Source: Escherichia coli (GTDB lineage: Bacteria > Pseudomonadota > Gammaproteobacteria > Enterobacterales > Enterobacteriaceae). Taken from it: a stretch of 64,000 nt of DNA. Under the pieces are notes generated by a model that had not been told where the DNA came from, ran no database searches, and worked only from the letters and a program-made list of their open reading frames with translations. The first letter of the stretch is position 1; every line of letters begins with the position of its first letter. The translations under genes and the position numbers were made by a program. The stretch lies in NCBI RefSeq assembly GCF_024502345.1, contig NZ_JALDNN010000001.1; one strand, written 5' to 3'. Below are positions 10,018 to 10,237 of the stretch, in pieces.

Positions 10018-10237
10018 TGTGATATCAATCACATAAATATAGGGGGTAGAGAGGTAATTGACGTGATGTTCATCACAAAACGCTTGTGTAAAAAAGCAAC
10101 AAGGCGGCGATTTTCGCTAAAAATGGCATTTAAATGTGACTAATGTCACATTTTTGTTTTGATGGTTTGTTGAATCTTTGTGATCTGAATCACAAGATAT
10201 TTTCTTACGGCGTTCACCTGATGTGATCTACAGCATG
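10018..10237 (-). promoter_or_regulatory. mtlA promoter region with an array of CRP binding sites
   Basis: Consensus-like TGTGA-N6-TCACA sites at 10018-10033 (tgtgatatcaatcaca), 10062-10077, 10135-10150 (tgtgactaatgtcaca), 10179-10194 (tgtgatctgaatcaca) and a half-site near 10222; the mtlA promoter is known to carry multiple CRP sites. Confidence 0.7.

What the first reader, a model, noticed from the sequence alone, without database searches (positions are those of the whole stretch)
10018..10237. Array of four to five CRP sites in the mtlA control region
Three perfect or near-perfect TGTGA-N6-TCACA palindromes plus further half-sites are spread over about 220 bp upstream of mtlA, an unusually dense CRP array that matches the known multi-CRP architecture of this promoter. 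Its intactness suggests normal catabolite control of mannitol uptake.
Basis: partly seen in the sequence, partly recalled or inferred. Interest (0 to 1): 0.2.

Follow-up and report, generated by a model that had tools for sequence, protein, structure and literature searches.

The report
Known five-site CRP array upstream of mtlA
This is the well-studied control region of the E. coli mannitol operon: five binding sites for the global sugar-sensing regulator CRP, intact and with unchanged spacing, so the finding is correct but not new.

Summary
Between mtlA (minus strand, 7961-9874) and yibI (plus strand, 10411-10773) there are three perfect TGTGA-N6-TCACA cores (10018-33, 10135-50, 10179-94). 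There is also one core with a single mismatch (10062-77) and one 7-of-10 half-site (10222-37).

A CRP weight matrix built from 12 sequence-verified K-12 sites ranks these five sites 1, 2, 3, 6 and 17 of about 64,000 positions. No shuffle of the window reproduces the cluster.

The centre-to-centre spacings of 44/73/44/43 bp equal the published CRP5 to CRP1 sites of K-12 (-58.5 to -262.5). All differences from K-12 lie outside the pentamers. MtlR is 100% identical to K-12 and MtlA 99.5%.

The "catabolite control" interpretation is right but incomplete. A 2026 paper shows that the 43-46 bp site pairs also act as the operator on which MtlR, a repressor with no DNA-binding domain, docks onto CRP.

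My addition: in 46 Enterobacterales operators the 44/73/44 frame is almost invariant.

Verdict: already known, low interest.

The parts
10015..10036 (-). CRP5, the promoter-proximal CRP site (core TGTGATATCAATCACA at 10018-10033; centre 10025.5, equal to -58.5)
   Evidence: Perfect core. Scores 20.7 bits, rank 1 in the window. Position matches published CRP5. Reported as essential for mtl expression in K-12. T at 10017 where every other E. coli sequence I read has G.
10059..10080 (-). CRP4 (core 10062-10077, CGTGA...TCACA on the + strand; centre 10069.5, equal to -102.5)
   Evidence: One mismatch in the core. Scores 14.9 bits, rank 3. Lies 44 bp from CRP5. Differs from K-12 at one N6 base. Reported as essential in K-12.
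10132..10153 (-). CRP3 (core 10135-10150; centre 10142.5, equal to -175.5)
   Evidence: Perfect core. Scores 18.9 bits, rank 2. Lies 73 bp from CRP4. Differs from K-12 at two N6 bases. The consensus scan also flagged it as 'terminator-like'; this is just the palindrome followed by a T-run.
10176..10197 (-). CRP2 (core 10179-10194; centre 10186.5, equal to -219.5)
   Evidence: Perfect core. Scores 12.5 bits, rank 6. Lies 44 bp from CRP3. Identical to K-12. Reported as essential in K-12.
10219..10240 (-). CRP1, the weak distal site (core 10222-10237, TGTGA + GCATG, 7 of 10; centre 10229.5, equal to -262.5)
   Evidence: Scores 9.6 bits, rank 17. Lies 43 bp from CRP2. At least 9.5 bits in only 15 of 46 Enterobacterales operators. 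Reported as dispensable and unoccupied in K-12.
9974..10002 (-). mtlA sigma-70 promoter: -35 TGGACA (10002..9997), 17-bp spacer, extended -10 TGcCAGATT (9982..9974)
   Evidence: Inferred from the published site numbering together with the sequence. Both elements are conserved in the anchored alignment of 46 operators. The generic promoter scan missed it because the -10 hexamer matches only 3 of 6.
9967..9967 (-). Inferred mtlA transcription start (plus or minus 1-2 nt), giving a 93-nt 5' UTR
   Evidence: Computed from CRP5 = -58.5. It lies 7 nt downstream of the -10 hexamer. Not measured here.
9983..9996 (.). Cra(FruR)-like sequence CTGAATCGGTTAAC inside the promoter spacer
   Evidence: Resembles the Cra operator consensus as I recall it (own knowledge, not tested). 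Partly conserved. The paper states that Cra and Fis sites exist in this region but gives no coordinates. Low confidence.
10086..10100 (-). Conserved T/A-tract block GTnnTTTTTTTACAC (-133..-119) inside the 73-bp CRP3-CRP4 gap.
   Evidence: Conserved in 46 Enterobacterales operators while the first ~35 bp of the gap are not. Scores -9.7 bits as a CRP site. Function unknown.
7961..9874 (-). mtlA (EII-Mtl, 637 aa), the regulated gene
   Evidence: 634/637 identical to K-12. Cys384 and His554 are present.
5996..6583 (-). mtlR (195 aa), the repressor that docks on CRP pairs
   Evidence: 195/195 identical to K-12 MtlR, including R167 and L178 (residues named).
10411..10773 (+). yibI, the divergent neighbour (context only; not shown to be controlled by the array)

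Best explanation
The array is the activator/operator region of the mannitol operon mtlADR, which is transcribed on the minus strand.

Five cAMP-CRP sites (CRP5 to CRP1, centred at -58.5, -102.5, -175.5, -219.5 and -262.5) lie upstream of a weak sigma-70 promoter: -35 TGGACA, extended -10 TGcCAGATT, start near 9967.

Activation: CRP bound at CRP5 recruits RNA polymerase in a class-I-like way. CRP4, CRP2 and, to a lesser degree, CRP3 are also needed, making this a class III promoter. CRP1 is weak and dispensable.

Repression: the site pairs spaced 44 bp apart (CRP4-5 and CRP2-3; 43 bp for CRP1-2) also form the operator. An MtlR dimer has no DNA-binding domain. It bridges two adjacent DNA-bound CRP dimers and blocks their contact with RNA polymerase.

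[quoted passage not shown] Dephosphorylated HPr competes for MtlR and restores repression when glucose is present.

Shown here: the sites, their scores, their exact geometry, their conservation, and intact mtlR and mtlA. Taken from the literature on the near-identical K-12 sequence: CRP binding, site requirements, MtlR docking and sequestration. Inferred: that the four non-core substitutions in this window do not change behaviour.
For: Sequence evidence:
- Three perfect cores and one 1-mismatch core within 177 bp, plus a 7/10 site.
- Weight-matrix ranks 1, 2, 3, 6 and 17 in the window, with no comparable cluster in 200 shuffles.

Match to the studied locus:
- The intergenic region aligns to K-12 without indels. 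All differences inside the array fall in N6 spacers or flanks.
- The spacings 44/73/44/43 are identical to published CRP5-CRP1.

Partners intact:
- MtlR is 100% identical to K-12, with R167 and L178 present.
- MtlA is 99.5% identical.

Experimental evidence in the literature:
- EMSA, spacing variants and chromosomal site mutants.
- CRP genomic SELEX, in which yibI/mtlA was the second most abundant clone class.
- CRP ChIP-seq in ETEC, with two peaks listing exactly these four core sequences: CRP1 and CRP2 under the yibI peak, CRP5 and CRP4 under the mtlA peak.

Comparative evidence:
- In 46 Enterobacterales operators, CRP2-3 is 44 bp in 46/46, CRP4-5 is 44 bp in 46/46 and CRP3-4 is 73 bp in 44/46. 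The CRP5-to-ATG distance, by contrast, ranges from 144.5 to 272.5.
- Among 120 loci holding a perfect pair at 43-46 bp, all 70 from Enterobacterales, Pasteurellaceae or Orbaceae are mtl operators. Their spacing is 44 bp in 67 and 43 bp in 3. The 50 other loci are spread over 43-46 bp.
- The promoter elements are conserved at a fixed offset from CRP5.
Against: - Nothing was measured on this exact allele. The T at 10017 next to CRP5 was not seen in any of 5,404 complete E. coli genomes (best match 99.7%).
- The MtlR-docking mechanism rests on one recent paper (EMSA, mutants and an AlphaFold3 model); there is no experimental structure.
- CRP5 at -58.5 is 3 bp off the canonical class I position, and the start site comes from old S1 mapping that I could not check.
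- How the far-upstream sites activate is unresolved even in that paper.
- My cross-species sample is biased.
Confidence: 0.88

Rival explanations
1. The array serves catabolite control only. Multiple CRP sites merely tune cAMP sensitivity and the strength of activation. Mannitol-specific control would act elsewhere.
For: CRP is essential for mtl expression, and the sites are bona fide CRP sites. Older literature described the sites only as CRP sites.
Against: MtlR has no DNA-binding domain. It supershifts CRP-DNA only when two sites are 43-46 bp apart, and R167E and L178A mutants lose repression. If the sites only tuned activation, the spacing would not need to be held at exactly 44 bp across orders, yet it is 44 bp in 67 of 70 mtl operators.
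Confidence: 0.07
2. The array is a bidirectional control region. The distal sites (CRP1/CRP2) would also, or mainly, regulate the divergent yibIH genes.
For: The sites lie 181-225 bp upstream of the yibI ATG. An ETEC ChIP-seq table assigns the CRP2/CRP1 peak to yibI. The SELEX authors note that both genes lie downstream of the binding sequence.
Against: No sigma-70-like promoter was found on the + strand between the array and yibI. CRP2 is essential for mtl itself. yibIH was detected next to only 15 of the 70 mtl-type loci, yet the 44/73/44 array is kept in genera where it was not detected, such as Pantoea, Pectobacterium, Serratia and Budvicia; some loci are too short to show the neighbouring gene. 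CRP1 is poorly conserved. In one E. coli strain an IS21-family element separates CRP1 and yibI from the rest of the array.
Confidence: 0.12
3. The palindromes are chance matches or structural elements (hairpins or terminators) rather than protein-binding sites.
For: The consensus scan calls the CRP3 palindrome plus its T-run 'terminator-like'.
Against: The cluster was never reproduced in 200 shuffles. The arms are only 5-8 bp, and the pentamers are invariant rather than covarying across genera. There is no Rfam match. The region lies upstream of the inferred start site. Direct binding data exist.
Confidence: 0.01

Closest known systems
E. coli K-12 mtlADR operator-promoter (Ramseier & Saier 1995, five CRP sites; Lee et al., NAR 2026, PMC13421365)
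   Same: It is the same locus. The flanking genes, the five sites, the 44/73/44/43 spacings, the pentamers, the promoter elements and the MtlR protein are all the same.
   Different: Four substitutions in the array region: two in the N6 spacer of CRP3, one in the N6 spacer of CRP4, and one flanking CRP5 (T at 10017). Each raises the matrix score slightly, by 0.6-1.6 bits. MtlA differs at 3 of 637 residues.
CytR-CRP anti-activation complexes (e.g. deoP2)
   Same: A repressor sits between two tandem DNA-bound CRP dimers and turns an activator into a platform for repression. The comparison is drawn.
   Different: CytR binds DNA itself. The deoP2 sites are about 53 bp apart (centres 53 bp apart in K-12 locus L011), not 43-46 bp. 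MtlR has no DNA-binding domain.
malE-malK multi-CRP cluster
   Same: A dense cluster of several CRP sites in a divergent sugar-transport control region. Three of its sites were used in my training set.
   Different: The adjacent sites tested there are 34 bp apart. MtlR does not bind unless the spacing is engineered to 44 bp.
mtl operators of other Gammaproteobacteria (Salmonella and Vibrio in the paper; Pasteurellaceae and Orbaceae here)
   Same: At least one CRP pair at 43-44 bp directly upstream of mtlA.
   Different: Pasteurellaceae have three strong sites spaced 40/44. Gilliamella and other Orbaceae have a single 44-bp pair. The 73-bp-separated double pair was seen only in Enterobacterales loci.

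Membership tests
cAMP-CRP binding site | 22-bp two-fold-symmetric site with a TGTGA-N6-TCACA core | tested here: met
   Three perfect cores, one with 1 mismatch and one matching 7 of 10.
cAMP-CRP binding site | Weight-matrix score within the range of experimentally known sites and above background | tested here: met
   Scores are 20.7, 18.9, 14.9 and 12.5 bits against a training range of 10.3-20.4. CRP1 at 9.6 bits is borderline and not significant alone.
cAMP-CRP binding site | Physical binding of cAMP-CRP | not testable with these tools
   Published for the K-12 and ETEC sequences by EMSA, genomic SELEX and ChIP-seq. Not done on this allele.
mtl operator (MtlR docking platform on CRP pairs) | Adjacent CRP sites with centre-to-centre spacing of 43-46 bp (optimum 44-45) | tested here: met
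   CRP4-5 is 44 bp, CRP2-3 is 44 bp and CRP1-2 is 43 bp. These are the only matrix-hit pairs at 40-50 bp spacing in the window. Criterion.
mtl operator (MtlR docking platform on CRP pairs) | Located directly upstream of the mtlA promoter, with mtlR in the operon | tested here: met
   mtlA, mtlD and mtlR lie at 9874..5996 on the minus strand. MtlR is 100% identical to K-12, with R167 and L178 present.
mtl operator (MtlR docking platform on CRP pairs) | Formation of an MtlR-CRP-DNA ternary complex, with release by dephosphorylated EII-Mtl | not testable with these tools
   Literature only.
Class III CRP-dependent promoter | Two or more CRP sites upstream of a weak sigma-70 promoter that needs the activator | tested here: met
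   Five sites. The -10 hexamer matches 3 of 6, preceded by an extended TG. The -35 hexamer matches 5 of 6. The generic scan finds no strong promoter. Classification as.
CytR/CRP nucleoprotein operator | Tandem CRP sites about 52-53 bp apart flanking a CytR box | tested here: not met
   The spacings are 43/44/73 bp. The CytR-box criterion comes from my own knowledge and was not searched for.
Intrinsic terminator / structured RNA | G+C-rich stem with a T-run in a transcribed region, or a match to a covariance model | tested here: not met
   The only 'terminator-like' call is the A/T-rich CRP3 palindrome (3 G-C pairs of 9). No Rfam hit reaches threshold.

The most novel reading that the evidence does not exclude
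The two 44-bp CRP pairs may not be independent modules but one phased nucleoprotein frame.

The distance between the pairs is 73 bp in 44 of 46 Enterobacterales operators, and 72 or 74 in the other two. The first ~35 bp of that gap are not conserved in sequence, and the downstream leader varies by more than 120 bp.

Two short non-CRP blocks are conserved: a T/A-tract at -133..-119 and AACAAA at about -205..-199.

This would fit a fixed higher-order assembly. For example, both CRP pairs, with or without MtlR, could be held on one DNA face with a bend or a third factor such as Fis in the gap. Such phasing would be required for remote activation. The 2026 paper only speculates about this and did not test it in vivo.
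Probability: 0.3. Interest if true: 0.35.

Novelty: already known. Interest (0 to 1): 0.1.

Why it matters
For annotating this window it matters little. The mannitol operon's control region is present, intact and of the standard E. coli type, so normal CRP- and MtlR-dependent regulation is expected.

The locus is of general interest because it is the textbook case of an unusually dense CRP array. Since 2026 it is also the model for a repressor that recognises the spacing of another protein's sites rather than DNA sequence.

The comparative result obtained here is a modest addition that could guide spacing experiments. The 44/73/44 frame is nearly invariant across Enterobacterales, and within the CRP-bearing orders sampled, perfect pairs at this spacing were found only at mtl operators.

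Tried and rejected
- The generic sigma-70 scan found no mtlA promoter, because the -10 hexamer matches only 3 of 6. I placed the promoter from the published numbering and from conservation instead.
- The same scan's 'terminator-like' hit is the CRP3 palindrome. I rejected it as a terminator.
- The galE region I fetched missed the promoter, so the gal site was left out of the verified matrix. A second matrix that added 8 unverified sites recalled from memory gave the same picture.
- Figge et al. 1994 (PMC205122) is not held in the library, so the original promoter map could not be read.
- The Rfam scan of 9700-10600 gave only a chance-level PhrS hit (E = 0.84).
- I looked for a yibI promoter served by CRP1 or CRP2 by eye and with the scan. 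None was found at a class I or class II distance.
- Perfect pairs at non-mtl loci in unclassified gammaproteobacterial MAGs (L086, L044) lie next to cytochrome c/DsbC-like genes and a CitMHS transporter gene. No mtl genes are nearby. I did not pursue them.
- Hits in Tannerella and Treponema MAGs are tandem-repeat families or chance matches.

Full report
**Where the finding lies**

The finding sits in a 536-bp intergenic region, 9875-10410. On one side is a 637-aa ORF on the minus strand (7961-9874). On the other is a 120-aa ORF on the plus strand (10411-10773). The region is present in 5,404 of 5,426 complete E. coli genomes. K-12 annotation identifies the flanking genes as mtlA and yibI, with mtlD and mtlR downstream of mtlA. 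"Upstream of mtlA" therefore means reading the minus strand.

**Checking the observation**

A search for TGTGA-N6-TCACA with up to one mismatch finds six matches in 64 kb, against 1.63 expected. Four of them lie within 177 bp:
- 10018-33, perfect
- 10062-77, one mismatch
- 10135-50, perfect
- 10179-94, perfect

A fifth element at 10222-37 (TGTGATCTACAGCATG) matches 7 of 10 core positions.

Twelve were found exactly: lac, araBAD, malT, tnaA, ompA, cya, crp, two in deoP2, malE and two in malK. None of them is an mtl site.

The symmetrised 22-bp matrix gives these results:

| Site | Score (bits) | Rank in window |
|---|---|---|
| CRP5 | 20.7 | 1 |
| CRP3 | 18.9 | 2 |
| CRP4 | 14.9 | 3 |
| CRP2 | 12.5 | 6 |
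| CRP1 | 9.6 | 17 |

The training range is 10.3-20.4 bits. The other top hits fall in the xylF/xylA and malS/bax intergenic regions. I recall both as CRP-dependent promoters, so they act as internal positive controls.

In 200 dinucleotide-preserving shuffles, a 220-bp span never held more than two hits of at least 12 bits; the real array holds four. CRP1 alone is at background level.

**Identity with the studied locus**

The intergenic region aligns to K-12 without gaps and with six differences. Four of these lie in or next to the array, and none is in a pentamer: two are in the N6 spacer of CRP3, one in the N6 spacer of CRP4, and one is the base flanking CRP5. Each moves the matrix score slightly upward.

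The site centres are 10025.5, 10069.5, 10142.5, 10186.5 and 10229.5, giving spacings of 44, 73, 44 and 43 bp. Lee et al. (NAR 2026, PMC13421365) give CRP1-CRP5 of K-12 at -262.5, -219.5, -175.5, -102.5 and -58.5, with spacings of 43, 44, 73 and 44. The match is exact.

This numbering places the start site near 9967. Seven bases upstream of that position lies CAGATT preceded by TGc, an extended -10 element. Seventeen bases further upstream lies TGGACA. Both elements are conserved at a fixed offset from CRP5 in other genera. The generic promoter scan missed this promoter because its -10 hexamer matches only 3 of 6, as expected for an activator-dependent promoter.

**How it works (from the literature on the near-identical K-12 sequence)**

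CRP is essential for mtl transcription. Chromosomal replacement of CRP2, CRP4 or CRP5 abolishes expression and growth on mannitol. Replacing CRP3 has a small effect, and CRP1 is dispensable and normally unoccupied.

MtlR has no DNA-binding domain. It supershifts CRP-DNA only when two CRP dimers are bound 43-46 bp apart, with the optimum at 44-45 bp. It does not bind the 73-bp CRP3-4 pair or the 34-bp malK pair unless these are re-spaced to 44 bp. MtlR mutants R167E and L178A lose both binding and repression. [quoted passage not shown]

Independent evidence for CRP occupancy comes from two sources. In genomic SELEX the yibI/mtlA spacer was the second most abundant clone class. ChIP-seq in ETEC H10407 gave two peaks that list exactly these core sequences.

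In the window, the partner proteins are intact. MtlR is 195/195 identical to K-12, including R167 and L178. MtlA is 634/637 identical, with Cys384 and His554 present.

**Related sequences**

I used the single genome-collection scan for two perfect cores 43-46 bp apart.

Seventy of these loci come from Enterobacterales, Pasteurellaceae or Orbaceae, and every one is an mtl operator. Sixty-three have mtlA in the locus. The other seven are cut just before mtlA but show the same site pattern, and two of them show the first 15-17 MtlA residues. In these 70 loci the spacing is 44 bp in 67 and 43 bp in 3, and never 45 or 46 bp. The 50 remaining loci come from unrelated phyla, repeat families and unclassified MAGs. 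They are spread 10/15/10/15 over spacings of 43-46 bp (chi-square p about 6e-13).

Scanning 450 bp upstream of each mtlA and anchoring 46 Enterobacterales operators on CRP5 gives:
- CRP4-5 is 44 bp in 46/46.
- CRP2-3 is 44 bp in 46/46.
- CRP3-4 is 73 bp in 44/46 (72 in Silvania confinis, 74 in Brenneria roseae).
- CRP5-to-ATG ranges from 144.5 to 272.5 bp.

Only one pair per locus was imposed by the search, so the other pair and the 73-bp gap are free observations. CRP1 reaches 9.5 bits in only 15 of 46 operators. The first ~35 bp of the 73-bp gap are not conserved in sequence. A T/A-tract block (window 10086-10100) and an AACAAA block (10166-10174) are conserved.

Pasteurellaceae show three strong sites spaced 40/44. 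Gilliamella and other Orbaceae show one 44-bp pair.

yibIH was detected next to only 15 of the mtl-type loci. The array therefore travels with mtlA rather than with yibI.

**Variation within E. coli**

Twenty-four sampled genomes, down to 96% identity, span exactly 301 bp for a 301-bp query, so they have no indels. In the sequences I read, substitutions fall only in N6 spacers or flanks. One strain, GPEC1054, carries an IS21-family element inserted at about 10211, between CRP2 and CRP1. This agrees with CRP1 being dispensable.

**Rival explanations**

- A pure catabolite-tuning array is contradicted by the MtlR data and by the strict 44-bp spacing.
- Additional control of yibIH by the distal sites cannot be excluded. 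It lacks a recognisable promoter at a suitable distance and lacks comparative support.
- Chance, hairpin or terminator readings are excluded by the shuffles, by pentamers that are invariant rather than covarying, by the absence of an Rfam hit and by the direct binding data.

**Verdict**

The feature is already known in detail. The only element beyond the literature I read is the near-invariance of the whole 44/73/44 frame. This suggests, but does not show, a phased higher-order complex.

Noticed in passing
window 38201-38222: Fourth-best CRP matrix hit in the window (TTTTGCGAGCGAGCGCACACTT, 14.1 bits). It lies in the divergent xylF(-)/xylA(+) intergenic region, and I recall a known xyl CRP site there. 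It served as a positive control for the matrix.
   Followed up: partly
window 31822-31843 and 31939-31960: Two CRP-matrix hits of 12-14 bits in the malS(-)/bax(+) intergenic region. I recall malS as CRP-dependent.
   Followed up: partly
window 43097-43112: TGTGACGGGGCTAACA (one mismatch to the core) is identical to the motif listed under a CRP ChIP-seq peak inside wecH in ETEC H10407 (PMC4287617). It may be an intragenic CRP target.
   Followed up: no
window 47127-47148 and 41732-41753: Two further CRP-matrix hits (13.9 and 12.4 bits). I did not examine their gene context.
   Followed up: no
window 10017: T immediately flanking the CRP5 core, where K-12, O157 and the other E. coli sequences I read have G. 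No complete E. coli genome matches the 301-bp array region at 100% (best 99.7%). The change makes the CRP5 arms an 8-bp perfect palindrome and raises the score by 0.6 bits.
   Followed up: partly
L133 (E. coli GPEC1054) ~2751, equivalent to window ~10211: An IS21-family element (istA/istB, ISSso4-like) is inserted between CRP2 and CRP1. It separates CRP1 and yibI from the rest of the operator, a natural test of whether CRP1 is dispensable.
   Followed up: partly
window 7732-7960: The mtlA-mtlD spacer is 229 bp, as in K-12. Its translation ([10 protein letters not shown] in the extended ORF) looks REP-like. O157:H7 TR01 has only 94 bp there.
   Followed up: no
window 1-25000: The best complete E. 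coli genome is only 98.5% identical over 25 kb and differs by several kb in length there. The source lineage is therefore not closely represented among the 5,426 complete genomes.
   Followed up: no
window 10086-10100 and 10166-10174: Two short non-CRP blocks (GTnnTTTTTTTACAC and AnAACAAA in mtlA orientation) are conserved across 46 Enterobacterales operators, while the neighbouring spacer sequence is not. They could be a Fis site or a bend element. Function unknown.
   Followed up: partly
L026, L061, L079, L080, L107, L108, L116, L123 (Pasteurellaceae); L015, L045, L049, L060, L076, L110 (Orbaceae): These mtl operators have a different architecture. Pasteurellaceae have three strong CRP sites spaced 40/44 bp; 40 bp is outside the MtlR-compatible range measured in E. 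coli. Gilliamella and other Orbaceae have a single 44-bp pair.
   Followed up: partly
L086 9038-9097; L044 6828-6888: Well-scoring tandem CRP-like sites 44-45 bp apart in unclassified gammaproteobacterial MAGs, not next to mtl genes. In L086 they lie upstream of cytochrome c and DsbC-like genes. In L044 they lie downstream of a CitMHS transporter gene.
   Followed up: partly
L057-L059, L073, L092-L095 (Tannerella MAGs): Repeated TGTGA-N6-TCACA units recur every 23 bp in arrays on several contigs. This is a repeat family unrelated to CRP biology that inflates pattern-scan hits.
   Followed up: no
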